A stretch of 63,865 nucleotides of DNA, filler included, from an uncultured Thermoplasmatales archaeon (GTDB lineage Archaea; Thermoplasmatota; E2; DHVEG-1), in the NCBI GenBank assembly GCA_964517155.1. It is 5 parts of 5 records of this genome, joined end to end, with 100 filler letters (N's around TTAATTAATTAA, not from the genome) between each part and the next. Parts side by side here need not be neighbours in the genome. Positions count along the whole stretch, not along the records: positions 29,697 to 56,295 come from CAZFAZ010000003.1; 4 more parts are not named here. One strand, 5' to 3'. The notes beneath the pieces were generated by a model, which had not been told where the DNA came from, searched no databases, and saw nothing but the letters and a program-made list of their open reading frames with translations. This document shows positions 29,697-59,653 of this stretch, piece by piece. The first letter of the stretch is position 1; each line of letters starts with the position of its first letter. A program made the position numbers and the translations under genes.

Positions 29697-30775
29697 TTTA
29701 TTACTTTATTACTCCAGAAATCCTTGAAGCTGTCAAGTTTACTAAGATTCTGAAAATCTTTAACGAGTGGTGGGCGTAGTTTTGCTTCAACATAACCTGC
29801 AACCCAACCTGCTGCAACGGCAGGGTTTAGAGAAGTCAAAGGTGCTGCTAGAAATGCAGTACCAATCGTAAGAGGATGTCCTCTAGCAATTGCAGCACCC
29901 AGTGCAGAAAGAGAACCGTTGATTAAAAACCACCAGAGAAGGATGTCTTTTATCTCTGAATAAGAAGATTCTCCTCTAAAAAGTAATAATCCACCTATTA
30001 ATCCGATAAAAAGTATAGGTATCATATATGCAATTATTTTTGATATTTTTATTCTTTTTTTAGGAACAAACTCAAGTGCTTTTAAATCTACATCCTCTGA
30101 AGGATTTTTAATATTTTCTTGTATGCCTTTTAAGTGTCCTGCGCCAACTACGGCTACTACTTTTCCTTTTTTGCTTTCATCAAGGATTTTTTTTGCAATA
30201 TACGTATCTCTTTCATGAATAAGAACAGTTGTAACACTTGGAGCAATTTGACCAAACTCTTCCATCATAGATGATATCACATCTTGATCCATGATTTTTT
30301 TAAGATCAAGTTCTTCTAACTCTTCTTCATCATAACCAAGCATTGCTTTAAGAAACTCCCAAGTTAATCTGAATTTCTCACGCAAGCCCATTTTTTTCCA
30401 TGCTCTTTTAAGTGTAACTGAAATATCTCTGTCTACAAGTGCAATCTTTAGATTATGTTTTTTTGCTTCATCAATTGCAGCAATCATTTCAGATCCAGGT
30501 TCTACGCCATATTCTTTTCCAAGCTTACGTTGTATACTTCCAAGAAAAATCTGTGCAAGCAGAAGATAGGCATTTCCACCCTTTAAAAGCTTAGTTATAG
30601 GAGTATTTTCCCATTCTTGTTTCTTTGTAATCGAGTCATAACGCCTTTGGCAGAGTTCAACTGCAACAATATCAGGTTTATGTTCTTTTATTACTTTTTT
30701 AACTTCGTCAACGCTTTCCTCTGATATATGTGCAGTTCCGATAAGGATTATGTTATCATTTACTTTAACATACAA
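29697..30775 (-). CDS. TraB/PrgY/GumN family protein, 3'-partial
   Basis: IGTAHIS, VAVELC, PGSEM, ERD and VVGAGH motifs with C-terminal TMs. Confidence 0.93.
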
Positions 30776-30843
30776 AGTCTATCTACCTTTTAAACTATGA
30801 AATATTATTAAATGAAATATTTTAAAAGAGTTAAAAAAACTTT

Positions 30844-31494
30844 TTAAATTTCTGCTTCAAAATCCTCAACCGTTGTTTTGAAGTCATCATAATTTTTAAT
30901 TTTACCCTGCTGCTTTAGAGTTTCACGTGTTAACAGCCAGTAAACAAGTGCAAGTGCACGTCTACCTTTATTGTTTGTAGGAATTACTACATCAAGAAAT
31001 TTTGTTTCATTATTAGTATCGCAAAGGCCGATAACTGGAATCCCTATGTTTTCTGCTTCATGAAGCGCTTGTTGATCTGCAAGTGGATCTGTAACGATTA
31101 GTAAAGCTGGCTCAAAAAAACCTTTTGCATTAGGATTTGTAAGAGTACCTGGTCTAAAACGCCCATCAAGGATTTTAATACCTGTTAATTCACCCATTTT
31201 TTTAATAGGTTTTTGACCGTATTGTCTAATTGAAACAGCAAGTATCTCAGCAGGATTATATTTTGAAATAAGCTTTGCAGCAGTTTTAATTTTTTCATCA
31301 GTTTTTTTAACGTCTATAATGTACAGACCATCGTTTCTAACTTTATAGATAAAATCTTTAATATCTGCTGTTTTCTGACGTGTTCCAATATGGGCGCCAG
31401 AAGTCATATATGTTTCTTCAGAAATAGCCATATTTTCTTCTTGAATTTTTGTAGTATTTTCTTCTTTTTCAGCTGTTTTTTCTTTCGTGGTCAT
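30844..31494 (-). CDS. rps2: 30S ribosomal protein uS2
   Basis: GAHIGT, GRFRPGTLTNP and IPTNNKG motifs. Confidence 0.97.
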   Translation of the reverse strand: MTTKEKTAEKEENTTKIQEENMAISEETYMTSGAHIGTRQKTADIKDFIYKVRNDGLYIIDVKKTDEKIKTAAKLISKYNPAEILAVSIRQYGQKPIKKMGELTGIKILDGRFRPGTLTNPNAKGFFEPALLIVTDPLADQQALHEAENIGIPVIGLCDTNNETKFLDVVIPTNNKGRRALALVYWLLTRETLKQQGKIKNYDDFKTTVEDFEAEI

Positions 31495-31523
31495 AAAAGT
31501 AACCTCTTAAAAAAATATTTTTT

Positions 31524-31703
31524 TTATACTCCTTGCATTCTTTTAACAGTTATTGGTATTGCATCTTCTTTAAACTCAATCATCGCAATATCAATAGGTG
31601 ATATCACATCTTTTGGTATCTTTATTAAAGTTGGAGCACCCATTGATATCTGAAGCGCACGTGCTCCTACAATTCGTGCTTTTTCAAATCTTGTATATTT
31701 CAA
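31524..31703 (-). CDS. rpoK: RNA polymerase subunit K (Rpo6)
   Basis: Not in the ORF track. TTG start after GGTGA gives [24 protein letters not shown]...IPITVKR (59 aa). Confidence 0.96.
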
Positions 31704-31812
31704 TTTTATTCACCGTATCTTATAAACCGTAAGACCACCAAATACTGGATGTATTTAAAAAACTTACCCCTAAAAAAGAACTTTTTGAATATAAAAATTA
31801 TAAAAAAGCTTC

Positions 31813-32022
31813 TTATTTCATTATTTCATGAGTATCTATATATTCTGTGGTTCTATTTGAAAACTCGTCTAACGCAAGCTGCATATCTATAGTAATATCT
31901 CTTAATAATTTGTCTAAATATTCATTTTTGAATTCTTTTATACCATCCATATCTGAAAAAAGTTTGCCTGTAAACCCAGCATCATCTCTATGAATCTCTA
32001 TATTATATAATGTTTCCTCCAT
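31813..32022 (-). CDS. Small acidic hypothetical protein
   Basis: MEETLYNIEIHRDDAGFTGKLF..., with a GAGGGGT SD. Confidence 0.6.
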   Translation of the reverse strand: MEETLYNIEIHRDDAGFTGKLFSDMDGIKEFKNEYLDKLLRDITIDMQLALDEFSNRTTEYIDTHEIMK

Positions 32023-32129
32023 AATTTTTTTACCCCTCTTATATATTTTAAATAAAACCCTAGGAATATAAAAACCTTTTGAAATATTCAAAATAAAAAA
32101 ATATATAATTAAAGAAGATAGTTTTAGAT

Positions 32130-32594
32130 TTATAGCATTTTTTCAAGGAGTTTATTTATTTCTTGACCACGGTAGCCAAGTGCTCCTTTTTTTGTAAATG
32201 CTTTTTTTATCCCTTCATAGCCTTTTTTTGGAGGACTTAATCTAAAAATAGGTTTAACACTAGGTATTTCTTTATATTTGAATTTTTTTGAAATAATTGC
32301 GTCTGCAAGTTTTTCCATATCTTTATATGAAGTTACAGATTTTAAATGATCTTCAGTGATTGGTTTATCTCCTTCAAGTCGTCCTCTTTGAGTTATTAAT
32401 TTAGTAAGAGTCTCTTTTTGTATTTCGCCCCAAGTTATGTAGTCTTTTGCTGTATATAACATCCCTTTGTTACTTGGTGTTTCATCTATTAATACACAGT
32501 GATTTGCACGTGTAAGATTTAACATCTGCAATGTCTTTTTTATATCTGGTTTAATATTTACAGTTCCTCTTACTCTTATGGCTGCATAAGTCAT
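32130..32594 (-). CDS. rpl30: 50S ribosomal protein uL30
   Basis: AAIRVRG, KDYITWGE and FRLSPPKKG motifs. Confidence 0.96.
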   Translation of the reverse strand: MTYAAIRVRGTVNIKPDIKKTLQMLNLTRANHCVLIDETPSNKGMLYTAKDYITWGEIQKETLTKLITQRGRLEGDKPITEDHLKSVTSYKDMEKLADAIISKKFKYKEIPSVKPIFRLSPPKKGYEGIKKAFTKKGALGYRGQEINKLLEKML

Positions 32595-32597
32595 TTT

Positions 32598-33368
32598 TTA
32601 ACTTGCCTCCTTTGTATCTTTTTCATTTTTATTGTCTGGTTCTTCAGTAATAATTGCTTGTTTTTGTATCTGAGTGGGTTCTATACTGCCAGAGATTATT
32701 CCAATTTTTTTAACTTGAGAATCCATTACACGCATCTCTGCATTTTCTTCAAGAGCATTAAAAACTGCTTTTGCATAATTAACTGTTGTTTTTGTTTTAC
32801 CACGTGTAAATGCCCAGCAGTCTTTAACACCGGCAAGTGTAAGTATCTTTTTTGAAACGTTTCCTGTTGCAAGGCCTATACCGCGAGGTGCTGGTTTAAG
32901 GGTTATTTCAACACTTCCACTTTTTCCAGTTATAGCATACGGTACAGTATGTGGTTTGCCACATCCGCATTCCCATGATCCGCATCCACGCCTTATTTCT
33001 ATCATGTTTAGCTTTGCGTTTTCTATTGCTTTGCGGATACTGCTACCTACTTCTTTGCCTTTAGCCTGACCAAAACCTATGAAGCCGTCGTTGTTACCAA
33101 CAGCAACCGTTATTACGAATTTAACACGTCGCCCTGAATCAGTCATACGTTGTACCATATTAACGTCTATTACTTCATCTTCTACTTTTTGCAGTAAAAT
33201 ATCTACTATTTCTGGTTCACGTAGCGGCAGACCACTTTTAAGTGCAGCAGTCATAGTAGTAATTTCTCCTTTTTTTACCAGCTTGCCAAGTTTAGTTTTT
33301 GGCTCCCAGTTACTTGTTTGAAACTCAGTTTTTACAGGTCGTCTTCTTTGTTGTGTTCTTGGTGGCAT
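32598..33368 (-). CDS. rps5: 30S ribosomal protein uS5
   Basis: [17 protein letters not shown] and RGCGSWEC motifs. Confidence 0.98.
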
Positions 33369-33874
33369 TATTTACCCCCTATAATCTTTGTTTTAATACT
33401 ATTTACATCATCTGATATATTTTTATCAAGATGCTGGCCAGTTATTCTTTCTTCAGATGGAAGTTTTTTTTCATCCAATGGACAAGTTACACCTGAATCT
33501 ATTACTCCTTTTAACCCTGCAAAAACTTTTGATCCAGTTACAGGTATGTATCTTCCAATATCAAGTACACATTCTGTAACGCCTTGCTCTTTTGCACGTT
33601 TACCTGCCAATAAACCAGTTAAATATGCTGCAGGAGTAGTTGAAGTAGAATATTTCCAGTTGTATTTTTTAACAAGTTCTTTAGATGTTGCTGTTGCACG
33701 TATTATGTCGCCTTTTTCATTGTAATCTATAAACTGTATAACTGTATTATTTATTGATTTGCGAATAACAAGCCTGGTATTTCTTGATTTTAGAAGTGCT
33801 AGTCTTTTTCTGTAATCTGTTTTTCCTTCTCGCCTGCGACGAGGCTTTACATGATAACGTGGTCCTGTTTTCAT
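33368..33874 (-). CDS. rpl18: 50S ribosomal protein uL18
   Basis: [10 protein letters not shown] and PAAYLTG motifs. Confidence 0.97.
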
Positions 33875-34335
33875 TTTTTAAGTTCCTCCTTAATTACTCC
33901 ATCTGAAAGCATATGTGTTTCAAGGTGGTGTTTATTTCTGAATTCTCCACCCTTTGCTTTCATATAGTATCTACGATAAACCGAGGATGTTATCTTTTTT
34001 TCAGCACGAAGTGTTTTTAGATGAAATCGTATAGGTCTTATTGTTTTAATCCATTTTTCTTTCTTTGGTTTTCTTGCCTTTTGTGCACCTTTACGACTGC
34101 CATGACCTCGACGTCGCCCTTTTTCTTTTTGTTTAGTAGCATATTTTTTTCTGCCACTAGAAATACCTATTACAGCACGTGCTTTTATGGCTTTACCATT
34201 GACTAGAATTCTAACATCATCTTTTGTAACTGCTTTTGCTATTTCATCAAGCCTATCATTATCCATCCAAACACGGTTTACACCGCATTTAAGAATTTCT
34301 GCAGCCATTCTTCGTTGATTCCTTAAATCAGTCAT
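33871..34335 (-). CDS. rpl19e: 50S ribosomal protein eL19
   Basis: QRRMAAEILKCGVNRVW and GHGSRKG motifs. Confidence 0.97.
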   Translation of the reverse strand: MTDLRNQRRMAAEILKCGVNRVWMDNDRLDEIAKAVTKDDVRILVNGKAIKARAVIGISSGRKKYATKQKEKGRRRGHGSRKGAQKARKPKKEKWIKTIRPIRFHLKTLRAEKKITSSVYRRYYMKAKGGEFRNKHHLETHMLSDGVIKEELKK

Positions 34336-34346
34336 ATTTTTTAACC

Positions 34347-34994
34347 TCACAAATTCAAGTTGAGAAGTCTAATATCAAGCTCTTTGGCTTTTTTCTCAAT
34401 ATCTATTCGTTTCTTTGTACCTACAGTGCCACCTATACGAGCAGCCTGAGTTTTAGGATTTATGCCTTCTAAATCTTTTACGTTAAAGACTGTTACTTCT
34501 TGAAAACCAGAAGAGTGCAAACCACGTGTTTCTTTGGGTCCACGAAAACCTACTCGAACCTTGCTAGGACGATATGCTAGGTTTCTACGCATCTTTGATG
34601 TTATTCCATCTGGACGACGCCAATTTTGAGGTATTCTTTTATAGCGGAACCATTCCTCACGCAAGAAGTTAGGCGTACGCTTCTTTATTTCTTTTCTTTT
34701 TTCAAGTTTTTGTTTTAATTCTTCACTTAAAACTGGTTTCTTTTTTGGTTTTACAGTCTTTTTTTCTCTTGGTTCTTCTTCTGTAGGCGTTTCTTCTTTT
34801 TTTGTTTTCTTAATTTCTTTTTTAATAGGAGTTTCTTTAACTTCTTTTTTGATGGAAGTTTTCTTTTTTTGCTCTGTAGTTTTAGTTTCTTGTTTTTTTG
34901 GTGTAGTCTTTTTCACTGGTATTTTTTCTGTAGGTTTTTTAACTGTTTGTGTTTTTTTCTTTGTTTCTTCTGTTTTTTTTGCTTTTTCTACCAT
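34347..34994 (-). CDS. rpl32e: 50S ribosomal protein eL32 with ~85-aa K/E/T-rich N-terminal extension
   Basis: PNFLREEWFRYKR...WRRPDG...RGLHSSG core. Confidence 0.96.
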   Translation of the reverse strand: MVEKAKKTEETKKKTQTVKKPTEKIPVKKTTPKKQETKTTEQKKKTSIKKEVKETPIKKEIKKTKKEETPTEEEPREKKTVKPKKKPVLSEELKQKLEKRKEIKKRTPNFLREEWFRYKRIPQNWRRPDGITSKMRRNLAYRPSKVRVGFRGPKETRGLHSSGFQEVTVFNVKDLEGINPKTQAARIGGTVGTKKRIDIEKKAKELDIRLLNLNL

Positions 34995-35536
34995 TATTGC
35001 CTACCTCCTTTACTTATACGGTATACACCATCTTGGAAAACACGTATATCTCTGTTTTTTACTTTTGTGGCTCTTTCAATGTTTGCAACTGTTTGACCAA
35101 CTTTTTCTTTGTCAATTCCAGTAACTGTAATATTTTCGCCTTTTGCATCTACATTTACTCCATCTAGTATTTTTGCATGTCTGGGAGATCGCTCTCCGAG
35201 AAAATTCTGAATAATAAATTCGTTTCCCTCCACCATTGTTTTTATAGGAAAATGAGAAAATACTGTTTTCATTTTATATTCAAAGCCTTGTGTTACACCA
35301 CGTTTCATGTTGTTTATATGTGCAATAAATGTTCCCATTAATGCTTTATCTTTTCTTCTTATATTTTTGCTGTGTAATTCAATTATGTTTCCAGTTAGTT
35401 TTATATCTATTTTTGGATGTGAAAAGACTCTTGAAATTTCTCCTTTTTCACCTTTTATTGTTAATTTATCATTTTCAAAGGTTGAAGTAACGCCTTCAGG
35501 AAGCGTTATTTTTTCATTTATTTCTGGTATATTCAT
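34994..35536 (-). CDS. rpl6: 50S ribosomal protein uL6
   Basis: SHFPI, NFLGE and DIRVFQDGVY motifs. Confidence 0.97.
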   Translation of the reverse strand: MNIPEINEKITLPEGVTSTFENDKLTIKGEKGEISRVFSHPKIDIKLTGNIIELHSKNIRRKDKALMGTFIAHINNMKRGVTQGFEYKMKTVFSHFPIKTMVEGNEFIIQNFLGERSPRHAKILDGVNVDAKGENITVTGIDKEKVGQTVANIERATKVKNRDIRVFQDGVYRISKGGRQ

Positions 35537-35551
35537 GTTTTATCACCTTTT

Positions 35552-35941
35552 TTAGTAGACGTATGCTAGTAGTTTGCCCCCTATTCCATTTTTCTTTGCC
35601 TCATCCTGTGAAAGTATTCCTTTTGTTGTTGTAAGAATTAAAAGCCCGAAATGCTGCGCTGGTAAATATCTTGACTCCCATTTATCTGTATCATTTCCTT
35701 TTATTGGATATCTTGGTTTTACGACACCACAATTGTTTATATTACCTATGAGTTTTACTTTGAATACTCCTGCTTTTCCATTATCAATGTGTTCAAATTC
35801 TCCAATGTACCCTTTCTCTTTTAACAGGTTTAATACTCCACCTATTAATTTTGATGAAGGCTGAATATCGCAAGTTCCTTTTCCTTTTAACTCTGCATTT
35901 TTAATTATTGATAATGCATTTGCCAGTGGATCATTTAACAT
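35552..35941 (-). CDS. rps8: 30S ribosomal protein uS8
   Basis: MLNDPLANALS...GGKLLAYVY; start corrected using the GGAGG SD. Confidence 0.97.
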   Translation of the reverse strand: MLNDPLANALSIIKNAELKGKGTCDIQPSSKLIGGVLNLLKEKGYIGEFEHIDNGKAGVFKVKLIGNINNCGVVKPRYPIKGNDTDKWESRYLPAQHFGLLILTTTKGILSQDEAKKNGIGGKLLAYVY

Positions 35942-35957
35942 TTTTTCCGCCTCCATT

Positions 35958-36113
35958 TTATTGATATTTTCTAAATCCCATTTCTTCGGCTTTTTCTCTA
36001 AAGCATTGTCTGCACATGTGTAAGCCATAGGCTCGGATTAGCCCTCGTTTTCTTCCGCATCGCTCGCATCCTTTGATTCTTCCGTATATCTTCTTTTTTT
36101 CTTTTATCTTCAT
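35958..36113 (-). CDS. rps14: 30S ribosomal protein uS14 (Zn-binding)
   Basis: Not in the ORF track. Manual translation [51 protein letters not shown]. Confidence 0.97.
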
Positions 36114-36736
36114 CCTATGACCTCCACGTTAAATTGTTCTTGGAAAAACTTAATTGTTTCTTCTTTTTTTACTTGATGTCTCTGTGGTATATGCCTTGAT
36201 GCTATTCTTCTTTTTTTGACTCTGTATCCATGTCTTTTCATAGTAATTGAAACGTCCATGCCAAATATTCCAATTTTTGGGTCATATTTTTGATTTTTAA
36301 ACAAGGTATGATCAGGTATTCCAAATGATAAATTACCTTGGTCATCAAATGAATAATCAGACATTTTATTTTCACGAGTAAAAAGCGCCTCAGTTAAAAA
36401 ATTATTAGCTGTTTTTCCACGAAGTGTAACCTTACAGCCAATAGGCATTCTTTTACGTAAACCCCAATCTTTGTTTGTTGTCTTTGAAAGAGTTTGAACG
36501 GGTTTGTGTCCTGTTAAATTTTGTAAAACTGATTCTGCTTTTTTGAGCCTTTCACCTGCTTCACCAACGCCTATATTAATTGTAATTTTTTCTATTTTTG
36601 GTGAAAATATTTTTTGTTTTTCTTGTTTATCGACTTTTTTAGCTTTTACAGGTGTTTTTTTAACTGTGTTTTTTGTCTTTGTTGGTTTTGTAGGTTTTTT
36701 CGTCTTAGTTTTTGCAGTCTTTTTTTCAGGACTCAT
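36110..36736 (-). CDS. rpl5: 50S ribosomal protein uL5 with K/T-rich N-terminal extension
   Basis: [23 protein letters not shown] and [11 protein letters not shown] motifs. Confidence 0.97.
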
Positions 36737-37449
36737 TATGCTTTCACCTCAGGTAACTCGATTATTGGTTTGTTTTTTCCAATTGGAAAAACATATTCTT
36801 TAAGTGTGGTAAATTCAGTAGAGCCTTTCATTGTTGCAAGATTGGATTTTGGTGAATCGATTATTTCAATATCGCCTATATTTGCAATTTCTCCAATGTG
36901 ACTTCCGCCGATAATCATTGAAACAGCGCCTTTTTCAAACTTGTAAATATCATCTATTTTTTGTTTTTCAAAACTGATTTTTAGTACATCCCCAGTTTTA
37001 TATTCATCTTTTTTTACTATTTTATTTCGTCCATCATGTAAGTTTAATTGAACTTGTTTTTCTTTAACTATTGTCTTGTTTTCAATTCTGCATAGTTTAT
37101 ATTTTGCTTCTTCTGCTTTTATTGGGACAAGTGTAAGTTTACCACGTCTATCAAATAGAAGTCTGTAATCTTTTTTTATGGTAGGTATAGTTATTACATC
37201 CATGAGCCCACAGGGATGTTTATAGCTTTTTACGATTTTACCGTCTACATAAATTTCCCCATTAGATATGACGCGTTTTGCCTCTTTTAAAGTATCTGTT
37301 AACTTCAGGTAATCTCTAATTATTAGACCTAGAGGTATTGATTGTTTAAGAGAATGTGGCCCAGGTGATGTTCTAATAGTCCATACTCTTTCTTTTCTAT
37401 GAAGTCTAACTGTTCTTGGAGCGTTTAATCTCTTCATGTGTTTGCTCAT
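36736..37449 (-). CDS. rps4e: 30S ribosomal protein eS4
   Basis: KHMKRLNAP, PGPH and QLNLHDGRN motifs. Confidence 0.97.
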   Translation of the reverse strand: MSKHMKRLNAPRTVRLHRKERVWTIRTSPGPHSLKQSIPLGLIIRDYLKLTDTLKEAKRVISNGEIYVDGKIVKSYKHPCGLMDVITIPTIKKDYRLLFDRRGKLTLVPIKAEEAKYKLCRIENKTIVKEKQVQLNLHDGRNKIVKKDEYKTGDVLKISFEKQKIDDIYKFEKGAVSMIIGGSHIGEIANIGDIEIIDSPKSNLATMKGSTEFTTLKEYVFPIGKNKPIIELPEVKA

Positions 37450-38088
37450 TTATTTTTCCTCCTTTTTTGGCGTTTTTGGAGAAGTTTTTTCCTTTTCTTG
37501 TGTCTTTTTTTGCTCTGTTGTTTTAGTTTCTTGTTTTTTTGGCGTCGTCTTTTTTACTGGTGTTTTTTCTTTTTCAGATGGTTCTTCTTTTACAAGTTTT
37601 TCTTCAGATATCTCTTCTTCGGCTGTTGGTTCTTCTTCTTTTTCAGCTAGCTCTTCAATTCTTCTCTGCTCTTCTTCTGCTTCACGCAACTGTTTTTGAG
37701 CCTCTTTTTCAATTTCTTTTCTTGTTTCTTCAGAAAGCCCTGTTTCAAGTCTTCTTCTTCGCCATCTATCAGTAAGGTTAAGTTTTGTAATAAGGACATT
37801 ACTTGGATGTATAGGTTTTGCAATTTTGTTTCCATCTGCTTTACTCATAGTAATCCCTTCGATTTCAACAATGCCTTTTTTAATGTTTACTTTAGCCACT
37901 TTATCTTCATGTCCTCTGAAGTTACCGCGCATTACACGTATAGTATCTCCTTTTACGACAGGAACTGATCTTTTATCGTATTTTAATAGCAGATTTTCAT
38001 CAAGATGCGCAGAAATGCCTTTCCTTTTTACATGTAGGGGGGCATTATGCATTCTTTTCCTTTGTTTACCAGGATTTATTGTTTTCAT
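37450..38088 (-). CDS. rpl24: 50S ribosomal protein uL24 with ~95-aa E/K-rich C-terminal extension
   Basis: PGKQRK, KGDTIRVMRG (KOW) and PIHPSNV motifs. Confidence 0.97.
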   Translation of the reverse strand: MKTINPGKQRKRMHNAPLHVKRKGISAHLDENLLLKYDKRSVPVVKGDTIRVMRGNFRGHEDKVAKVNIKKGIVEIEGITMSKADGNKIAKPIHPSNVLITKLNLTDRWRRRRLETGLSEETRKEIEKEAQKQLREAEEEQRRIEELAEKEEEPTAEEEISEEKLVKEEPSEKEKTPVKKTTPKKQETKTTEQKKTQEKEKTSPKTPKKEEK

Positions 38089-38107
38089 TTTATACTTCCC
38101 TCATTTA

Positions 38108-38506
38108 TTACACAATACTAGAAGCATTTGAAGCAATCTTTGGGTATCTCTCAGCAGCTTCCAGGGCAACAGGTCCTTTAATCATCGATCCTTTAGTTTC
38201 ACCAGTCTCGGTAACAATTACTGCAGCGTTGTCTTCAAATTGTACCATTGTTCCATCAGAACGTCTAAATGGTCTTTTCTGACGTACAATTACTGCTTTT
38301 AAAAGCTGTCTTCGCATATCAGCAGCACCTTTTTTAACACTAATAATTACCATGTCGCCTACACCTGCAACAGGATACCTTCTATGTGTACCCTTAAGTT
38401 TAGGCGTCATAACTATTTGAACTACTTTTGCACCAGTATTATCAATACATTCTAAACGTGCTCCAACGGGAAGCCCACGTTTTGTTCTACCTGCGATACC
38501 CTTCAT
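38108..38506 (-). CDS. rpl14: 50S ribosomal protein uL14
   Basis: DNTGAK and FEDNAAVI motifs. Confidence 0.98.
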
Positions 38507-38519
38507 AAATTTATCACCT

Positions 38520-38867
38520 TCATATTTTTTCTATTGCTACAAATGAAACTGTTTTACTGAGTGGTCTGCACTCAGCAATACGAACTTTATCCCCGACATT
38601 TATATTAAGACAAGGCGGGCAATGAGCCGTATATTTACTTGTTCTTTTCTCGTAACGCTCATATTTTGGAACATAACTACTGTATTCTCTTTTTACAACT
38701 ATTGAATTCTGCATTTTTGTGGATGATACAACACCTGTTATTATCTGACCACGAACTGATAAAGTCCCATGAAATGGGCAGAATTTATCATCACAACTCT
38801 GGCTGGGTGCTTTGACGTTAAGTCCAATATTTCTTGCATCTGTTTTATCAGGCATTTTGTTTTTCAC
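38520..38867 (-). CDS. rps17: 30S ribosomal protein uS17
   Basis: [11 protein letters not shown] and ECRPLSKT motifs. Confidence 0.97.
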
Positions 38868-39127
38868 CTTATTTTTTTAATTCTATCTTCAGGGCGAAAA
38901 GCTATTTTTTCGCCGGTTATCCTTATTTTTTCATCATTTATGGTAAATTCAAATACTGCTGTTTTCTTGGCAAGTATCTTAGTTTTATTTTTTGTTTTTA
39001 TGTGGAAGGTGTTTTTTGTCTCATCGATTATGAGTCCAGTTTGTCCTTCCCAAGCAGGATCTGTGCATTCTAGGATTTTTACCTTCAAGCCTATGAACTC
39101 ATCTCTTGCAAGGGTTTTTTCATTCAT
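38864..39127 (-). CDS. rnp1: Ribonuclease P protein component 1 (Rpp29)
   Basis: [17 protein letters not shown] and RPEDRIK motifs. Confidence 0.93.
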
Positions 39128-39207
39128 ATATTGCCCTCTTTTCTTGAGATTGTTTTGCATAGGATTCTCAACTCAAAGGCTGAACCTTTGAACCATATCA
39201 AATATGG

Positions 39208-39507
39208 TTACGCAATTTCAACGGTAAATCCCATTTTCTCAAGAGTTTCTTTTACTTTGTTTCTGTGGTCGCCCTGCAGCTCTATTTTTCCATCTTTTAT
39301 TGTGCCACCGCAGGCACATTTGGATTTAAGCTGTGTTATCAAAGCGTGTATATCGAGGTCGTGTTCGTCTATACCATATATAATCGTCATCATCTTTCCG
39401 TATCTGCGCTTATCCATCTGGATAGTTATCTTTTGTTGCTCACGAGCTATATCTTCACAAACACAGATCTCTTTTGGTAGACCACATACTTCACATATAT
39501 TGCTCAT
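39208..39507 (-). CDS. Translation initiation factor SUI1 (aIF1)
   Basis: CEVCGLP, LKSKCACGGT and IELQGDH motifs. Confidence 0.95.
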   Translation of the reverse strand: MSNICEVCGLPKEICVCEDIAREQQKITIQMDKRRYGKMMTIIYGIDEHDLDIHALITQLKSKCACGGTIKDGKIELQGDHRNKVKETLEKMGFTVEIA

Positions 39508-39708
39508 TTATTTTTCTCCTTCCTCCTGCATGATAGTAAGAATCTTTGCAATATTCATCCTAAGTTGGCGTATCTTGCCGGGCGATGGAGGCGAACCCCC
39601 CATTGCAGCAACTCCTCTTTCATGCATAAGTTCATTTTTCAATTCATTGAGCTTTTCATGCCTTTCTTCAGGTTTGAGTTCTCTTAGTTCTTTAGCCTTA
39701 AGTTTCAT
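39508..39708 (-). CDS. rpl29: 50S ribosomal protein uL29
   Basis: LKAKELRE...PGKIRQLRMNIAKILT. Confidence 0.95.
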   Translation of the reverse strand: MKLKAKELRELKPEERHEKLNELKNELMHERGVAAMGGSPPSPGKIRQLRMNIAKILTIMQEEGEK

Positions 39709-39710
39709 TT

Positions 39711-40562
39711 TTATGCAACCTCTTCAAGAATTTTTCTAAGGCCTTTAACTATGTTTTCAGCAGTTTTTCCACCTATTCCTTCAATAGATGCAAGATCGTC
39801 TACATCCATTTCAAATAGTTCTTCTAATGATTTAATACCTGCTTTTTCAAACTTTTTAACAACAGACGGCCCTATACCTTGTATTTCTATAAGGTTTTTA
39901 AGCGGAGTAACTTTCTTTTCAACTGGTTTTTGTTCTTTTTTCTCGTCTTTTGTTTCTTCTTTTTCAGCTTTTTTTAAATTTATTTCATCAGGTAATTTTG
40001 CATCAGATCTCATAATACGAACTTTAACACCAATTACCCCTGGTTTTAATTTTGCAACAGCATAGCCTGTATCCATTACTTGACGAGCGGTTTCACCACA
40101 ATATTTAACATGACCTTCTGTAAATTTTTCAGTTCTGTGACGTGCACCAGTAAGTTTACCTGCGATAATCACCTGAACACCTTTTGCGCCTGCATCCATT
40201 ATTCTGCGGACTGTAGAATGACCTGCTCTTCTAAAATGCCAACCACGTTCAAGAGCCTCTGCAAGTTTTTCTGCCATTATTTGTGCATTAATGTTTGCTC
40301 TGCCGCCTGCTTCTTCGATTTCAATTTGTGGATTATCAACTTTAAAGTTTTCTTTTATTGCTTCTGTTAACTCTTTGATTTTATGACCGCCTTTACCGAT
40401 TACCATACCTGGGCGTTCGACCAGTATATTTATTCTAGTTCCCATAGGTGTACGCTGGATAGTCATGCCGCCAAAACCGGCACCTTCTATTTTTTTGACT
40501 AGGAATTCTTTTATTAGTATTCTATTTGTATTTTCTCTTATGAAATTTCGTTCTCCTGACAT
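39711..40562 (-). CDS. rps3: 30S ribosomal protein uS3 with C-terminal (HhH)2 domain
   Basis: KH motif RPGMVIGKGG and GVIGVKVRI core; tail IQGIGPSVVKK...IEGIGGKTAENI. Confidence 0.97.
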   Translation of the reverse strand: MSGERNFIRENTNRILIKEFLVKKIEGAGFGGMTIQRTPMGTRINILVERPGMVIGKGGHKIKELTEAIKENFKVDNPQIEIEEAGGRANINAQIMAEKLAEALERGWHFRRAGHSTVRRIMDAGAKGVQVIIAGKLTGARHRTEKFTEGHVKYCGETARQVMDTGYAVAKLKPGVIGVKVRIMRSDAKLPDEINLKKAEKEETKDEKKEQKPVEKKVTPLKNLIEIQGIGPSVVKKFEKAGIKSLEELFEMDVDDLASIEGIGGKTAENIVKGLRKILEEVA

Positions 40563-41005
40563 TAGTCTACCTCTTCAAGTATTATTTCAATATTTGTTGT
40601 TCTAGTATTTTTATCAGTGGCTCTTCCATGAGCACGAGGCATAATGCCTTTTATTACACGTCCACCGTATGCAGAAGCATGTGTTATTTTCATCTCTTCA
40701 GGATTAAAGCCTTTGTATTCAGCATTGTTTTCAGCGTTTTCTAGTATTTTAAGCATATATTTTGCTGCTTTTTGTGGAAAACTTCCAGGGCCTATCCCTT
40801 TTTGATGCGAACGTTTTCCATTGTGAAATATTGCAGGTAAAGGTCTTTTCATATCGATTATATCTTGCAAGTATTTTTTTGCTTGTTCTGTTTTCATACC
40901 GCGTATTGCATATGCAAGATTAATTGAGTCTTTTCTACTGCAGTGTAATTCATAACCATATGCTTTTGCGGCTTTATCTTGATCTAAATCTGTTGAATAT
41001 CTCAT
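40562..41005 (-). CDS. rpl22: 50S ribosomal protein uL22
   Basis: NAENNAEYKG and PRAHGRA motifs. Confidence 0.97.
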   Translation of the reverse strand: MRYSTDLDQDKAAKAYGYELHCSRKDSINLAYAIRGMKTEQAKKYLQDIIDMKRPLPAIFHNGKRSHQKGIGPGSFPQKAAKYMLKILENAENNAEYKGFNPEEMKITHASAYGGRVIKGIMPRAHGRATDKNTRTTNIEIILEEVD

Positions 41006-41011
41006 ATTTCA

Positions 41012-41470
41012 TCACTTCAATGGCATAAATTTAGATGACCTTGTTGCTCCAACACCAGGTCCTGTGTGTTTTACTTTCTGGCGAGTAAGTGCAAATTCTC
41101 CAAGATAGTGCCCGATCATTTGTGGTTCTATTGTTACACGTTGGAATTCTTTACCATTGTAAATATTAATAGTATGTCCTACAAAACTTGGAAGTATAAC
41201 CATATCTCGGCAATGGGTTTTAATCGAGTCTCCTTCATTTGCTTTTTCAACATCATTTAAAAGTTTGTTTTGTATGGTTGTAAGCCCACGTTTAAGTGTT
41301 CTGCGAGTACGAGATGGAAGCAAAGGCATTACTTCTTCGATTGAAAGTTTTTTAAGTTCTTCAAGGCTGTATCCCTGAAAGCTGAATTCTTTCTTTTTAA
41401 ATTCGATTTTTTTTCTGCTAGCTTTCCTTCTGCTTCTTGCAGATGATTTAAATCCTTTTTTAGTAGCCAT
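41012..41470 (-). CDS. rps19: 30S ribosomal protein uS19
   Basis: THCRDMVILP, MIGHYLGEF and GATRSSKF motifs. Confidence 0.98.
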   Translation of the reverse strand: MATKKGFKSSARSRRKASRKKIEFKKKEFSFQGYSLEELKKLSIEEVMPLLPSRTRRTLKRGLTTIQNKLLNDVEKANEGDSIKTHCRDMVILPSFVGHTINIYNGKEFQRVTIEPQMIGHYLGEFALTRQKVKHTGPGVGATRSSKFMPLK

Positions 41471-41475
41471 TTTAT

Positions 41476-42186
41476 TTACTTCCTCCCAGTACGTTTTGCA
41501 GCTATATTGCCGACTTTTCTACCTGGTGAAGCTCCACGTTTTATAGTTGATGGTCCTCCAACATGTTGGTGTCCACCACCACCGTGAGGGTGATTTACAG
41601 CAGACATTGCAACACCTCGAACAACAGGATATTGCCTACCTCTTACTCTTCTAGCAATACTTTTCTTTCCTGCTTTAAGATATGGTTTGTCTTTACGTCC
41701 GCCTCCGGCTACAACACCAATTGTTGCTTTGCAACCAGAGTCAAGTCTTTTAAAAGCACCAGACGGTAATTGTATAACTGTTATGTTTTTTTCATGGGAT
41801 ACGACTGTTGCAGTACTTCCTCCAGCTCGAACTAGTTTGCCGCCATCACCTGGTTTAAGTTCAATGTTAAATATAGGGGCTCCTTCTTGGATTTTGCCAA
41901 TAGATAAAATATTTCCAACTGCGATATCATTTTTTTTATCAGTGAATTTTATTTTGTCGCCTGTTTTTATTCCTTCAGGAGCAATAATTGTAATCTTTTT
42001 ATTATCGATTGTTTTTATATCTGCAAGAGGTGCCGTTCTACCAGGATCATGTATTATATCAGTTACTGTTCCTTCTGTTAAATTTGTTTTATAATCATAT
42101 TTTATTTCTCCTTTAAATCTATGTGATGGAGAATTAAATTTAGTATGAATTTTTCCTCTTCTCTGCTGTATAAGTCTCTTACCCAT
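41476..42186 (-). CDS. rpl2: 50S ribosomal protein uL2
   Basis: HDPGRTAP and VRGVAMSAVNHPHGGG motifs. Confidence 0.98.
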   Translation of the reverse strand: MGKRLIQQRRGKIHTKFNSPSHRFKGEIKYDYKTNLTEGTVTDIIHDPGRTAPLADIKTIDNKKITIIAPEGIKTGDKIKFTDKKNDIAVGNILSIGKIQEGAPIFNIELKPGDGGKLVRAGGSTATVVSHEKNITVIQLPSGAFKRLDSGCKATIGVVAGGGRKDKPYLKAGKKSIARRVRGRQYPVVRGVAMSAVNHPHGGGGHQHVGGPSTIKRGASPGRKVGNIAAKRTGRK

Positions 42187-56295: not shown

Positions 56296-56395
56296 NNNNN
56301 NNNNNNNNNNNNNNNNNNNNNNNNNNNNNNNNNNNNNNNTTAATTAATTAANNNNNNNNNNNNNNNNNNNNNNNNNNNNNNNNNNNNNNNNNNNN
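56296..56395. other. Artificial contig linker
   Basis: N44-TTAATTAATTAA-N44. Confidence 0.99.
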
Positions 56396-56694
56396 GAATC
56401 TTCTCTAGGTGGCCCTGATTCAAAATCAGGAGATGCCATAGGAATAAGCTCTGCAGCAGTAGTCATTACACCTGAATCTGGTGAATCAGGATAAGGATCT
56501 CCAAGATCCATTTTTATTCCTGCTATAACCTGGGTATTTCCAATTGTTACTTTTGCAGATCCTTCGGCTTTTTTAATGATGCCTGTTTCGATTTTTATAG
56601 TTCTAAATTCATCAAATTTTCTGTTATCAACTCTTTTACCATTTTTAGCAAGTTTAACAATATACTCTTTTTTTATTTCAGCAGTAATTGGCAT
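56396..56694 (-). CDS. rrp42: Exosome subunit Rrp42, 3'-partial
   Basis: RVDNRKFDEFR, AEGSA and FESGPP motifs; follows rrp41. Confidence 0.93.
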
Positions 56695-56697
56695 TTT

Positions 56698-57420
56698 CTA
56701 ACCCTCCATGTTTTTTTGATATTTTTCAAGAATTGCTTTTTTTTGCAGCTCTGAAATAATTTTACAACCTTTAATTGCAAGATCAAGTGCTTTATCAAAC
56801 TCATTTTGCGTTAAATGCCCATCCATCTGAAGCAGTAGTATTTCACCAGTGCGCGGAGATATTGCAACTGGTAAATCAGCTTGCCCGAAATTATCTTCTT
56901 CTTTACCAAGGTCAAGTACTACTTGCCCATCTATTTTACCTGCAGCACAGGCAACAGGTATATCTTTCATGGGTATTCCTGCATCAACAAGTGCTACTGC
57001 TGCAGCGGTAAGTCCTGCGCAACGAGTACCAGCTTCAGCATCAAGAACCTCTATGTTTACATCAATTGATGCTCTTGGGAATTTTTCAAGTAATATTATA
57101 TTTTCAAGAGCTTCAGAGATAACCTTTGAAATTTCGCGACTACGGCGATCAGGGCCGGGTCTTTTTCTGTCATCCACACTAAAAGCTGCCATGTTATACC
57201 TAGCATTTACTATTGCTCGTAAAGGATTCTGAGTATGACGCGGGACTGCTTCACGCGGGCCGTATACTGCAACAAGAACCTTGTTGCCACCCCATTCTAA
57301 ATAACAAGAGCCTTCTGCTCTATGAAGCACTCCGGCTTCTATTTTTATAGGTCTTAATTCATCGTTTTTACGGCCGTCTAATCTCTTGCCGTTTTTAATT
57401 AACTCCATATTTGATTTCAT
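56698..57420 (-). CDS. rrp41: Exosome subunit Rrp41
   Basis: [24 protein letters not shown] and AGTR motifs. Confidence 0.97.
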
Positions 57421-57422
57421 TT

Positions 57423-58103
57423 TTAATGCACTTCCTTTGAATCTTTTTTTAATAAATCTTCTATTTTATTTGTTAAGCCATATGATAATGATTCTTTTTG
57501 TATTAACTCAATTATTTCTATTGCTTTTTGAACGTCTTGTCCTTCACCGTCAATCCATATTCTACCGTTTTGCCCAACAAACATACGACAACGCGTATAT
57601 TTTTTTATAAGAGAAATCATAGATGCTTGTTTACCAATAATTCTTGGAATTTTTGAAGGTTCGACGTTTAGCAGGTTACCACCTTTTACTTTGTAAAGAT
57701 TTCTGTCCTTTAGCGTTATCTGTAATTTTTTTTCTTGATCTACCTGCAAAACCTTTGCCATTACCGTATCACCAGCGTTTAGATATCGATCTGTTTCTCC
57801 AAATTCTACATCCCATGGAACTTCATTTACATGTAAAAGTGCGGGATAAGCAGCATTGATATCTACAAGCCAACTAGATGCCATCGGCTCAATTACTATC
57901 CCTATTACAAAATCTCCTTGAATTGGATCATATCTACCTCTAAGCGGTACAACGTTTATATAATCTGAATTAGCATTTACTACACCTAGGACTTCAGCAT
58001 ATATTTTTCCTTTTTCTACGAATGTGCCCTGCCCTGCTTTTTTGGTTTGTATATCGCCTAAAAGCTGGCTTGGAATAACGATTTCACGTGTTTCTTTGTT
58101 CAT
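57423..58103 (-). CDS. rrp4: Exosome RNA-binding subunit Rrp4
   Basis: S1 plus KH domains: [10 protein letters not shown] and GQNGRIW. Confidence 0.95.
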
Positions 58104-58127
58104 AAAAACCCTTAACCCTTATAGGAA

Positions 58128-58823
58128 TTACTTTAAAATCTTTGTGGATACATTTCCTTTAGTTAAATCATTAAGTTTTTCATAAAATTCTGTTTGAATG
58201 CCTGCAGCAATTTTTACAATTCCAACCCATGAACCATCAGATTGCCATTCTTCACGTTCAAGTGCTCCAAAATTACGAGCTTCTCCATATGCACGACCGA
58301 TAAATTCAGCAGGTATCTTGACCGAAATACGAATATGCTCCATTGAAAGCGGAATTATTGGTCTTAATGCTTCAACAATTATTTTAACTTGCTCACGTAC
58401 TGGTTTAAATGGATCAATATGAATGCCTGCCTGCTCCATAGCAAGCTCTATTCTTTGTCTTGGATGCGGAGCTTTGGTTTTAGGATCCATTGCGTTTTTT
58501 GCAATAGTTTCAATAATGCGATTTTTCTTATTTCTCTGCATTTTACTGCGCTGTTCAGTTGTAAGCTGTATATCACCTTTTTTAATGATTTTAGTTGCAA
58601 TTTCTGCTATATTATTTGTTCCAAAAACAGTTTGAAGAGACTCGCTAGATGCATGAGTCCCTTTTTTTGAATCATTAAAAACTGTATCTATAGCAAGAAT
58701 ATGAAGGATGTCAATTTCCTTTCCATCCAACAAATCTGCTGCAAGATACGGATCTACTAATATTTCGAAACGATCTTCTCCTTTTTTTAAACGAGCGATT
58801 ACTGCATCATCTAAACTAACCAA
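58128..58823 (-). CDS. Ribosome maturation factor SBDS/Sdo1
   Basis: FEILVDP, QLTTEQR and PHPRQRIE motifs. Confidence 0.96.
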   Translation of the reverse strand: MVSLDDAVIARLKKGEDRFEILVDPYLAADLLDGKEIDILHILAIDTVFNDSKKGTHASSESLQTVFGTNNIAEIATKIIKKGDIQLTTEQRSKMQRNKKNRIIETIAKNAMDPKTKAPHPRQRIELAMEQAGIHIDPFKPVREQVKIIVEALRPIIPLSMEHIRISVKIPAEFIGRAYGEARNFGALEREEWQSDGSWVGIVKIAAGIQTEFYEKLNDLTKGNVSTKILK

Positions 58824-58825
58824 TT

Positions 58826-59548
58826 CTAACTTCCTCCAAGAGCTTTTGAAACATACTCTTTGGTTTCCTCAGGTGTTAAAATATGGAATTTAATATCTTT
58901 GTCAACAACACCGATTTCAGTTGCATCTGGATTTAATTTACCTTCAGTACCTTTATGAATAGCTTTAATTGCCATTTCAATTGCTTGATCCATATTCATA
59001 TCTTCTCTGTAGTTACTTTCGAAAAAAGTCATGGCGCCGTTACGCCCTGAGCCTTCGCTGCTAGCTTTATATTCCATTAATGCTCCTGAGGGATCAGTCG
59101 AAAAAAGCCTGGGTCCGGATTCATCGACACCTGCAATTAACAAGGCTGTGCCAAAGGGTCTTACCCCACCGTATTGTGTGTATGTTTGTTTGAAATCACA
59201 GATTCTTTTTACAAGTGTTTTAACCTGGATTTTTTCGCTGTAGGTTATGTCGTTTATCTGAGCATCAAGTCTTGCTCTATCAATTAATGCTCTTGCATCT
59301 GCAACAAGCCCTGATGTTGCACAACCTACGTGATCATCGATTTCAAATATTTTTTCAATTGAACCGGGTTCAACCAGACGTGATGTAACGCGTTTGTCGA
59401 CAATTAAAACTACGCCAGTTTTATATTTTACGCCAACTGTGGTTGTTCCTCTTTTAACTGCTTCACGAGCATATTCTACCTGAAACAATCTCCCATCTGG
59501 AGAAAAAACAGTTATTGCTCTATCATATGCCATATTTGCTGGTTGCAT
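58826..59548 (-). CDS. psmA: Proteasome subunit alpha
   Basis: YDRAITVFSPDGRLFQVEYA signature. Confidence 0.98.
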   Translation of the reverse strand: MQPANMAYDRAITVFSPDGRLFQVEYAREAVKRGTTTVGVKYKTGVVLIVDKRVTSRLVEPGSIEKIFEIDDHVGCATSGLVADARALIDRARLDAQINDITYSEKIQVKTLVKRICDFKQTYTQYGGVRPFGTALLIAGVDESGPRLFSTDPSGALMEYKASSEGSGRNGAMTFFESNYREDMNMDQAIEMAIKAIHKGTEGKLNPDATEIGVVDKDIKFHILTPEETKEYVSKALGGS

Positions 59549-59653
59549 TTCTATCTTTCACCTCACTATAATTAAATAAATTTTTACAATCAATTATTAC
59601 AATTTTTTACTCAGAATACACTTATTGTGTATATACTTTGTGTTGATTTTTTG

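What the first reader, a model, noticed from the sequence alone, without database searches (positions are those of the whole stretch)
34863..37570. Identical 19-aa peptide in the tails of eL32 and uL24, diverged only at synonymous sites
34863-34929 (eL32 N-tail) and 37504-37570 (uL24 C-tail) match at 62 of 67 bp. Both encode PVKKTTPKKQETKTTEQKK. All four differences inside the peptide are third-position synonymous (GTG/GTA, ACT/ACG, ACA/ACG, ACT/ACA), and the fifth (I/T) is just outside it. That pattern suggests selection on the peptide, although counts are small. Inference: a portable motif for docking, modification or rRNA binding, shared between non-homologous ribosomal proteins.
Basis: partly seen in the sequence, partly recalled or inferred. 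Interest (0 to 1): 0.75.

Follow-up and report, generated by a model that had tools for sequence, protein, structure and literature searches.

The report
Gene conversion between two ribosomal-protein tails
Two unrelated ribosomal proteins of an uncultured archaeon carry the same 19-residue stretch in their floppy lysine-rich tails, most likely because a short piece of DNA was copied from one gene into the other, which is an unusual setting for an ordinary evolutionary process.

Summary
Window 34863-34929 and 37504-37570 match at 62 of 67 nt. Both encode PVKKTTPKKQETKTTEQKK, in the eL32 N-tail and the uL24 C-tail. An independent contig reproduces the stretch, so it is not an assembly artefact.

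It is not a one-off. Relatives at about genus level (Thermoplasmatota) carry a homologous ~25-aa K/T/Q-rich module, EK..KKTT.KKQT.TK...QKKTT, in both tails. The module changes quickly between relatives.

In G000 the eL32 copy has three states found in no other eL32 examined but present in uL24 of G000 and its sister lineage: Pro in TTPKK, a one-residue deletion, and Glu. Rare codons (AAG twice, GAG once) sit at the same positions in both copies. Tails from the same contig are more alike than tails from different contigs.

Best reading: recurrent non-allelic gene conversion (concerted evolution) between two homologous tail modules 2.6 kb apart in one operon. In G000 the direction was uL24 to eL32.

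The "synonymous-only" pattern rejects strict neutrality (P about 0.002). It fits ordinary purifying selection and rests on only four sites. A special portable docking or modification motif is not supported. The peptide occurs only twice in the genome, a strain variant has E to G, and in G002 the two copies have diverged beyond recognition.

Interest is moderate.

The parts
34347..34994 (-). eL32 gene (215 aa): disordered K/T/P/Q/E-rich N-tail of about 100 aa, then the eL32 core
   Evidence: ORF. Pfam Ribosomal_L32e at aa 107-212, E 5.9e-37. Solved archaeal eL32 chains align only from query aa 54-105 onward.
34862..34929 (-). Repeat copy A in the eL32 N-tail. Peptide PVKKTTPKKQETKTTEQKK = 34863-34919 (aa 26-44). 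Inferred recipient of the latest conversion.
   Evidence: Diagnostic states (P in TTPKK, one-residue deletion, E) are absent from the sister eL32 (P0002) and the 21 other eL32 rows of the motif alignment. They are present in uL24 of G000 and its sister.
37450..38088 (-). uL24 gene (212 aa): KOW core aa 5-115, acidic E/K/R-rich stretch (its helical nature is my inference), then a basic K/T/P tail ending KKEEK
   Evidence: ORF. Pfam Ribosomal_L26 E 5.1e-23. Solved archaeal uL24 chains are 118-128 aa and none covers query aa >138. The extension is family-wide.
37503..37570 (-). Repeat copy B in the uL24 C-tail. Peptide = 37504-37560 (aa 177-195). Inferred donor of the latest conversion.
   Evidence: The short KQ-ET / KP-EA form and TTP/TKP are shared by uL24 of G000, strain variant P0122 and sister P0123.
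34994..37449 (-). Five ribosomal-protein genes between the repeats: uL6, uS8, uS14, uL5, eS4. A crossover between the direct repeats would delete them. That only non-crossover copying could then survive is my inference.
   Evidence: Pfam: Ribosomal_L6, S8, S14, S4e; Ribosomal_L5/L5_C.

Best explanation
The two stretches are copies of one homologous tail module of about 25 aa (EK..KKTT.KKQT.TK...QKKTT). Within a genus-level clade of Thermoplasmatota this module sits in both the N-terminal tail of eL32 and the C-terminal tail of uL24.

The two genes lie 2.6 kb apart, in the same orientation, in the ribosomal-protein operon. The module-coding DNA has been re-homogenised repeatedly by non-allelic (interlocus) gene conversion.

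In the G000 lineage the latest event copied uL24 sequence into eL32, after the split from the sister lineage P0002/P0123. The tract was at least about 5 codons (Pro to Glu, about 15 nt) and at most about 68 nt.

After that event only a few third-position changes accumulated. A reciprocal crossover would delete five ribosomal-protein genes, so only non-crossover copying would be recovered.

What is shown: the repeat, the homology of the module in both proteins across the clade, the lineage-specific co-variation, and the shared rare codons.

What is inferred: the recombination mechanism, the direction of copying, and the role of the tails. I take the tails to be disordered polycationic extensions that bind rRNA or other nucleic acid electrostatically. 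In this genus the eL32 tail stands where related genera have a helix-hairpin-helix domain.
For: (1) Genus-wide homology of the module. 24 eL32 and 29 uL24 relatives align in one register. An HMM built from 17 eL32 motifs, with the apparently converted lineages left out, scores 12 of 120 uL24 proteins above the best shuffled-tail control (up to 22.0 vs 8.1 bits). The reverse HMM (20 uL24 motifs) scores 16 of 121 eL32 above the best control (18.9 vs 5.8).

(2) Concerted evolution. The summed same-contig tail similarity is reached by 2 of 5040 permutations. Without G000 it is reached by 1 of 720, which is the identity permutation only. Pair P0007/P0134 shares KTP.KKQTETKPT.QKKTTAK (19 of 21, z = 16.8, 0 of 500 shuffles). 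Pair P0241/P0122 has z = 17.8.

(3) Direction in G000. P in TTPKK, the one-residue deletion (KQ-ET) and E occur in G000 eL32 and its strain variant P0241. They are absent from the 22 other eL32 rows aligned. They are present in uL24 of G000, P0122 and sister P0123. Sister eL32 P0002 keeps the eL32-type V and QTAT. Run X3 holds a relative about 90% identical overall (177 differences over about 1873 aligned nt). Its eL32 differs from G000 at 11 listed positions plus an insertion within 34872-34914, which reproduces P0002.

(4) DNA-level copying. The minor codons AAG (12% of Lys codons; twice) and GAG (19% of Glu codons; once) sit at the same positions in both copies. Identical codons weighted by rarity give P = 0.0013 against independent codon choice for the same peptide.

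(5) Only G000 among 24 genomes has a long DNA match between the two genes. This fits episodic events.

(6) Tail-coding DNA of this genome is rearrangement-prone. The uS4 tail has a 99-nt tandem duplication, 87 of 99 nt identical. eL32 tails differ by indels between strains while the cores are identical.
Against: The plain count of identical codons (15 of 19) is not significantly above codon-usage expectation (mean 11.4; P = 0.058 with operon usage, 0.12 with tail usage). The rarity-weighted statistic was chosen after seeing the data.

Four of the eight four-fold sites differ. So the copy is not recent, or part of the identity is held at the protein level.

All four differences are synonymous, which strict neutrality does not predict (P = 0.0018; P about 0.008 at the eL32-tail omega of about 0.6).

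DNA of the other apparently converted lineages (P0007/P0134, P0129, P0002/P0123) could not be obtained. There the evidence is protein-level only, and co-evolution under selection would look the same.

The seven pairs are related lineages, and whole-tail scores in low-complexity sequence are noisy.
Confidence: 0.72

Rival explanations
1. A functional shared motif is kept identical by selection. Both tails must present the same peptide to one partner (an rRNA site, an assembly factor or a modifying enzyme). The identity and the lineage-specific co-variation then reflect co-evolution, with or without conversion as the vehicle.
For: All four differences are synonymous (P = 0.0018 under neutrality; P about 0.008 at omega 0.6). 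The module is kept in both proteins across the clade. Same-contig tails co-vary. eL32 tail omega is 0.6-1.2, so zero amino-acid change in the peptide stands out if all four differences postdate the copy.
Against: The peptide is in only 2 proteins of the genome. The module sequence is not conserved between close relatives (5 of 20 positions differ in sister eL32; 3 of 19 in sister uL24). Strain variant P0122 has E>G in the peptide. In 5 of 8 same-contig pairs the two copies are not significantly alike (P0004/P0124, P0015/P0128 = G002, P0021/P0141, P0023/P0149; P0002/P0123 only marginal), so identity is not required. Shared rare codons point to DNA copying. The statistics rest on 4 sites, of which at least one (T39, where sister eL32 has the same codon as G000 eL32) may predate the tract.
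Confidence: 0.15
2. A single recent one-off insertion or duplication copied a 67-nt piece from one gene into the other, with no earlier homology between the tails.
For: Similarity in G000 ends abruptly on both sides. Only G000 among 24 genomes has a long DNA match.
Against: Relatives that lack the G000 event already have the homologous module at the same place in both proteins. The G000 eL32 tail has the same length and register as its orthologues, so sequence was replaced and not inserted.
Confidence: 0.05
3. An assembly or binning artefact placed one tail sequence in two genes (chimeric contig).
For: The genome is a metagenome-assembled draft of 91 contigs. Low-complexity repeats can mislead assemblers.
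Against: The copies differ at 5 positions and have unlike flanks. An independently built contig of 11,794 nt from two runs covers both copies with 0 differences at word depth about 110, although these runs may be the source samples. A strain variant on another contig has both copies.
Confidence: 0.02
4. Chance convergence of low-complexity lysine-rich sequence.
For: Both tails are rich in K, T, E and P. Short shared words such as KKTPSK occur by chance in other genomes.
Against: z = 22.8 against shuffles that keep composition, 0 of 300 reaching it. No other pair in 24 genomes exceeds 8 aa.
Confidence: 0.01

Closest known systems
Interlocus (ectopic) gene conversion and concerted evolution of paralogues in prokaryotes, e.g. 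tufA/tufB, mtrA, archaeal histones (PMC6053082; abstract and passages read)
   Same: Copies within one genome are more alike than orthologues. Events recur in several lineages. The copies lie in one genome and stay functional.
   Different: The genes named in the passages I read are duplicates of one gene (tufA/tufB, mtrA, histones; the paper reports 19 bacterial and 7 archaeal genes). Here the two genes are unrelated (eL32 fold vs KOW/uL24). Only an appended module of about 25 aa in their disordered tails is homologous and exchanged, and the tract is at most about 68 nt.
Disordered basic extensions and tails of ribosomal proteins (review PMC11764897; only the search listing and the start of the abstract seen)
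   Same: Long lysine-rich N- or C-terminal segments on ribosomal proteins, thought to contact nucleic acid.
   Different: These tails are lineage-specific additions of about 100 aa. No solved archaeal chain covers them. Two different proteins share one homologous module.
HhH-linker-eL32 architecture of Haloarcula marismortui L32e (chain 1s72_Y, 241 aa)
   Same: Family-level relatives of this eL32 (e.g. G003) align with it over aa 13-250. Pfam finds HhH domains in most family-level eL32.
   Different: G000 and its genus lack the HhH domain. In its place they carry the K/T/P/Q tail that contains the shared module.
S/TPKK minor-groove-binding motif of histone H1 and sea-urchin H2B tails (recalled, not from any call)
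   Same: The converted peptide contains TPKK, and the uL24 tail also has SPKTPKK. The tail is basic, Pro- and Thr-containing, and disordered.
   Different: The resemblance is four residues in low-complexity sequence. No test was made. Sister and other genus members have TSVKK, TTAKK and similar at that place.
Lysine-rich disordered domains (KKE/D) of eukaryotic snoRNP proteins (PMC11528048; only the search listing and the start of the abstract seen)
   Same: Abundant K-rich disordered regions attached to proteins of the ribosome-making machinery, acting through electrostatics.
   Different: Eukaryotic nucleolar proteins, with no sequence relationship. This is an analogy only.

Membership tests
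Interlocus gene conversion / concerted evolution | Two homologous sequences in one genome | tested here: met
   63 of 68 nt. Module homology across the clade holds with cross-protein HMMs against shuffled controls.
Interlocus gene conversion / concerted evolution | Copies within a genome are more alike than copies between genomes (paralogue vs orthologue incongruence) | tested here: met
   Permutation of 7 same-contig pairs: 2 of 5040 reach the observed sum, and 1 of 720 without G000. G000 eL32 peptide matches its own uL24 at 19 of 19, but matches sister eL32 at about 14 of 20. Caveat: the evidence is protein-level except in G000.
Interlocus gene conversion / concerted evolution | DNA-level tract with excess identity at synonymous sites and defined ends | tested here: inconclusive
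   The ends are sharp. Identical codons 15 of 19, P = 0.06-0.12. The rarity-weighted test gives P = 0.0013. 4 of 8 four-fold sites differ.
Interlocus gene conversion / concerted evolution | Recurrence in independent lineages | tested here: inconclusive
   The G000 lineage and P0007/P0134 show uL24-type states in eL32. P0129 uL24 shows eL32-type states. There is no DNA for the latter two.
Portable short linear motif (docking or modification site) | Occurs in several otherwise unrelated proteins of the proteome | tested here: not met
   Only eL32 and uL24. A search of the large protein database with the tail alone returned only the query. That search did not even recover the known uL24 copy, so it has little power.
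Portable short linear motif (docking or modification site) | Key residues conserved among orthologues more than the flanking disordered sequence | tested here: not met
   In the genus alignments I saw no better conservation of the module than of the rest of the tails, by eye and without per-column scores. Only KK, Q and QKK spacing is fairly constant. Strain variant has E>G.
Portable short linear motif (docking or modification site) | A partner or a modification is demonstrated | not testable with these tools
   Needs pull-down or mass spectrometry on material from an uncultured organism, or on heterologously expressed tails.
eL32 (Pfam PF01655) and uL24 (Pfam PF16906/KOW) | Core domain matches above the curated cut-off | tested here: met
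   126.7 bits against a cut-off of 25; 81.8 bits against a cut-off of 28.8.

The most novel reading that the evidence does not exclude
The eL32 N-tail and the uL24 C-tail carry a co-evolving functional module that the cell needs in matching form on two different large-subunit proteins. It could be a bivalent, TPKK-like nucleic-acid-binding or factor-binding element that took over from the lost HhH domain of eL32. Conversions between the two genes would then be retained by selection because they keep the two copies matched. That would be adaptive concerted evolution between non-paralogous ribosomal proteins.
Probability: 0.12. Interest if true: 0.7.

Novelty: new member of a known kind. Interest (0 to 1): 0.4.

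Why it matters
This is a clean natural example of gene conversion acting on an appended disordered module shared by two unrelated, essential ribosomal proteins, rather than on whole duplicated genes.

It has three consequences:
- Identical peptides in low-complexity tails can arise by DNA copying and need not mark a functional motif.
- Ribosomal-protein tails in this Thermoplasmatota clade are evolutionarily fluid. I saw HhH loss, tandem duplication, indels and module exchange.
- Concatenated ribosomal-protein phylogenies should mask such tails.

If the minority reading were true, it would reveal a lineage-specific ribosome feature under co-evolution.

Tried and rejected
(a) A search of the 5.8-billion-protein database with eL32 residues 1-60 alone returned only the query (1 of 131 candidates passed). 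It did not recover the known uL24 copy, so it says nothing about other carriers.

(b) The metagenome-contig scan with eL32 gave 4 loci. All are HhH-type relatives from other genera (70-80% core identity). None has the module or a long DNA match between the two genes. No DNA of close relatives was obtained this way.

(c) The third-best DNA hit in the own genome (C19, 73% identity, E 0.0012) lies between ORFs beside a transposase-like frame. I take it to be A-rich background.

(d) Rfam found no family in window 30000-42000. An RNA-element reading was not pursued further. Variation confined to third codon positions is the opposite of what an RNA element predicts.

(e) Earlier findings of this scan: none for this place.

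(f) Literature. 'ribosomal protein' + 'helix-hairpin-helix' + 'L32e' gave 0 papers. 'gene conversion' + 'ribosomal protein' + 'low complexity' + 'archaea' gave 3 papers that looked unrelated from their titles and abstract openings. I found no report of this module or of conversion between ribosomal-protein tails in these searches. Subscription journals are not covered.

(g) Orthologue dN/dS against G001 and G002 was computed. Synonymous sites are partly saturated and the tail alignments are uncertain, so the omega values are rough.

(h) Runs X3 and X5 hold only relatives. The table of differences was truncated (1038 rows not shown), so divergence could not be compared quantitatively along the gene.

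(i) Proximity of the eL32 N-terminus and the uL24 C-terminus on the 50S could not be measured, because no coordinates are available through these tools. Solved chains do not include such tails.

(j) No structure or complex prediction was run. The tails are low-complexity and a model would not bear on the question.
Full report
**1. Observation**

Window 34863-34929 and 37504-37570 match at 62 of 67 nt. The repeat finder gives 93% over 68 nt. Similarity disappears immediately outside the repeat.

Both copies are on the minus strand, in the ribosomal-protein operon of a 32%-GC archaeal draft genome: 1.585 Mb, 91 contigs, 90.8% complete. Window 29697-56295 is contig C3.

Copy A lies in the N-terminal tail of eL32 (34347-34994; Pfam L32e at aa 107-212). 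Copy B lies in the C-terminal tail of uL24 (37450-38088; Pfam L26/KOW at aa 5-115).

Both encode PVKKTTPKKQETKTTEQKK. The four internal differences are synonymous third-position changes in one Val and three Thr codons. The fifth is I/T just upstream.

The match is far beyond composition. z = 22.8, with 0 of 300 shuffles reaching it.

It is not a chimera. Independently built contigs of two runs span both copies with no difference at word depth about 110, though these runs may be the source samples. A strain variant on another contig carries both copies.

**2. Occurrence in the genome**

The peptide, allowing up to 6 substitutions, occurs only in these two frames among 13,112 stop-to-stop frames of 40 aa or more. 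At DNA level the next-best place is a 73% match between ORFs.

K/T/P/Q-rich 40-aa windows occur in only 8 ORFs of the genome:
- uL24, eL32, uL5, eS1 and uS4
- RNA polymerase A''
- an FtsY-type GTPase
- one protein of unknown family with a hydrophobic stretch

. Basic tails are therefore mainly a feature of this organism's ribosome and nucleic-acid machinery. The particular peptide is not portable.

**3. Relatives**

eL32 and uL24 were each found in 39 of 41 related genomes. Source names place the clade in Thermoplasmatota.

Across the family, uL24 carries an acidic E/K/R-rich stretch plus a basic tail.

Most family-level eL32 carry an N-terminal helix-hairpin-helix domain and a K/E linker. This is the architecture of Haloarcula marismortui L32e. 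In the genus of G000 and a few other genera the HhH domain is absent. G000 and its close relatives carry a K/T/P/Q tail instead.

**4. The key result**

Genus-level relatives of both proteins carry a homologous module at the same place as the G000 peptide:
- eL32, e.g. EKTQAKKTTTKKQTVTKTTAQKKTT
- uL24, e.g. EKTPAKKTTTKKQTATKTTAQKKTT or EKPDIQKTIEKKQTETKTTTQKKTT

. 24 eL32 and 29 uL24 sequences align in one register.

The cross-protein test is not circular. An HMM built from 17 eL32 modules, with apparently converted lineages excluded, finds 12 of 120 uL24 proteins above the best shuffled-tail control. The reverse HMM finds 16 of 121 eL32.

Outside this clade the module is not recognisable. About 25 of 121 eL32 and 29 of 120 uL24 score above control with the joint HMM, and that HMM includes its training rows.

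**5. Concerted evolution**

The module evolves fast between relatives. Sister eL32 P0002 reads PVKDTSVKKQTATKTTEQKK. Sister uL24 P0123 reads PVKKTKPKKPEAKTTEQKK. Strain-variant uL24 P0122 has E>G.

Yet tails from the same contig resemble each other more than tails from different contigs. Without G000 it is reached by 1 of 720.

Three of the 8 same-contig pairs stand out:

| Pair | Shared | z |
|---|---|---|
| G000 (P0001/P0121) | 21 of 22 | 20.8 |
| Strain variant (P0241/P0122) | 20 of 22 | 17.8 |
| P0007/P0134 | 19 of 21 | 16.8 |

The first two belong to one lineage. The other five pairs are weak or not significant. G002 shows no similarity at all.

*Direction in G000.* Pro in TTPKK, the one-residue deletion and Glu are found in none of the other 22 eL32 rows. 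They are found in uL24 of G000, P0122 and P0123. So uL24 was copied into eL32 after the split from the sister.

*Other lineages.* PV and TTEQKK are shared by all four genes of G000 and its sister, which suggests an earlier event in their common ancestor. P0007 eL32 carries uL24-type TET, KPT and TTA. P0129 uL24 carries eL32-type states, so exchange may run both ways. These last inferences are protein-level only.

**6. DNA level**

Given the same peptide, first and second codon positions are fixed. Only 19 third positions are informative.

15 of 19 codons are identical, against 11.4 expected from operon codon usage (P = 0.058; 0.12 with tail usage). Minor codons AAG (twice) and GAG (once) coincide in position. 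Weighted by rarity this gives P = 0.0013, with a statistic chosen after seeing the data.

Four of the eight four-fold sites differ, so the copy is not very recent.

The X3 relative, which matches sister protein P0002, differs from G000 eL32 at 11 listed positions plus an insertion inside 34872-34914. At Thr39 it shows no listed difference from G000 eL32, so it appears to share that codon. That difference between the G000 copies may therefore predate the tract (the table is truncated).

**7. Selection**

S = 11.7 and N = 45.3 sites. The probability of 4 of 4 synonymous differences depends on omega:

| omega | P(4 of 4 synonymous) |
|---|---|
| 1.0 | 0.0018 |
| 0.5 | 0.013 |
| 0.3 | 0.046 |
| 0.2 | 0.10 |

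Orthologue comparisons give omega 0.6-1.2 for the eL32 tail, about 0.15 for the uL24 tail including its conserved acidic stretch, and about 0.1 for the cores. These values are rough because of saturation and alignment uncertainty.

So the peptide looks at least as constrained as an ordinary protein, and perhaps more than the eL32 tail average. The evidence rests on four sites at most. It is contradicted by the E>G strain variant and by the fast divergence among relatives.

**8. Mechanism and function**

I commit to interlocus gene conversion between direct repeats 2.6 kb apart (confidence 0.72). A crossover would delete uL6, uS8, uS14, uL5 and eS4. Only non-crossover copying would then survive, which is my inference.

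Short, patchy conversion tracts are known from Sulfolobus genetics. That point is recalled and comes from no call.

The tails are most likely disordered polycations that bind rRNA or other nucleic acid non-specifically. The eL32 tail stands where relatives have a nucleic-acid-binding HhH domain. This is inference.

No solved chain covers either tail. No Rfam family lies in the region.

**9. Comparison and novelty**

Concerted evolution by gene conversion is known in prokaryotes. The genes named in the passages I read are duplicates of one gene: tuf, mtrA and histones, among 19 bacterial and 7 archaeal genes (PMC6053082, passages read).

Here the exchanged unit is a module of about 25 aa in the disordered tails of two unrelated essential proteins. 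My searches found no description of this. I file it as a new member of a known kind, of moderate interest.

The minority reading is a co-evolving functional module kept matched by selection. It keeps about 12% probability.

Noticed in passing
L012-L032 and others (eL32 loci of family-level relatives); P0038-P0120: Most family-level eL32 proteins carry an N-terminal helix-hairpin-helix domain plus a K/E linker (Pfam HHH_5, HHH and HHH_2 together with L32e). This form aligns over aa 13-250 with Haloarcula marismortui L32e (1s72_Y). G000, its genus, G004, G023 and G024 lack the HhH domain.
   Followed up: partly
window 39711-40562 (-): uS3 has a C-terminal HHH_5 domain (aa 223-277, E 2.5e-16) after a K/E-rich linker. 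This is a second ribosomal protein of this operon with an appended HhH module.
   Followed up: no
G000:C83:6000-6197 (locus L077): The C-terminal tail of uS4 contains a tandem 99-nt (33-aa) duplication, 87 of 99 nt identical (KTEKIPEDKKEPVEETKKPQEEQVKKE...).
   Followed up: partly
window 36110-36736 (-); L076 (eS1); L074 (RNA polymerase A''): uL5 has a K/T/P-rich N-tail of about 45 aa. eS1 has a C-tail of about 110 aa ending ...KKVPAKKTTKKTSTKKK. RNA polymerase A'' has a K/T-rich N-tail of about 90 aa. Only 8 ORFs of the genome have such windows.
   Followed up: partly
window 37450-38088 (-), acidic stretch around aa 140-150: G000 uL24 lacks a 6-aa unit (EQKRLE-like) of the acidic stretch. The unit is present in strain variant P0122 and in the other uL24 rows of the genus-level alignment, so this is an in-frame repeat-unit deletion.
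   Followed up: no
L017 and L053 (genome G007): In another genus the eL32 linker and the uL24 tail share PKQEKKSE (25 of 26 nt, same frame; z = 5.1, 0 of 300 shuffles). This may be a small independent exchange, or chance in low-complexity sequence.
   Followed up: partly
window 1-29696 and 56296-63865: Only window 29697-56295 corresponds to contig C3 of the genome. The rest of the window lies off that contig or is N, so the window is not one continuous piece of chromosome.
   Followed up: no
L003 (G000:C19:1-2582): A transposase-like frame that runs off the contig start (to position 988) lies next to an ATPase-like ORF (1229-2485). Both labels are my reading of the translations, not tested. 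The A-rich spacer between them gave the weak third DNA hit.
   Followed up: no
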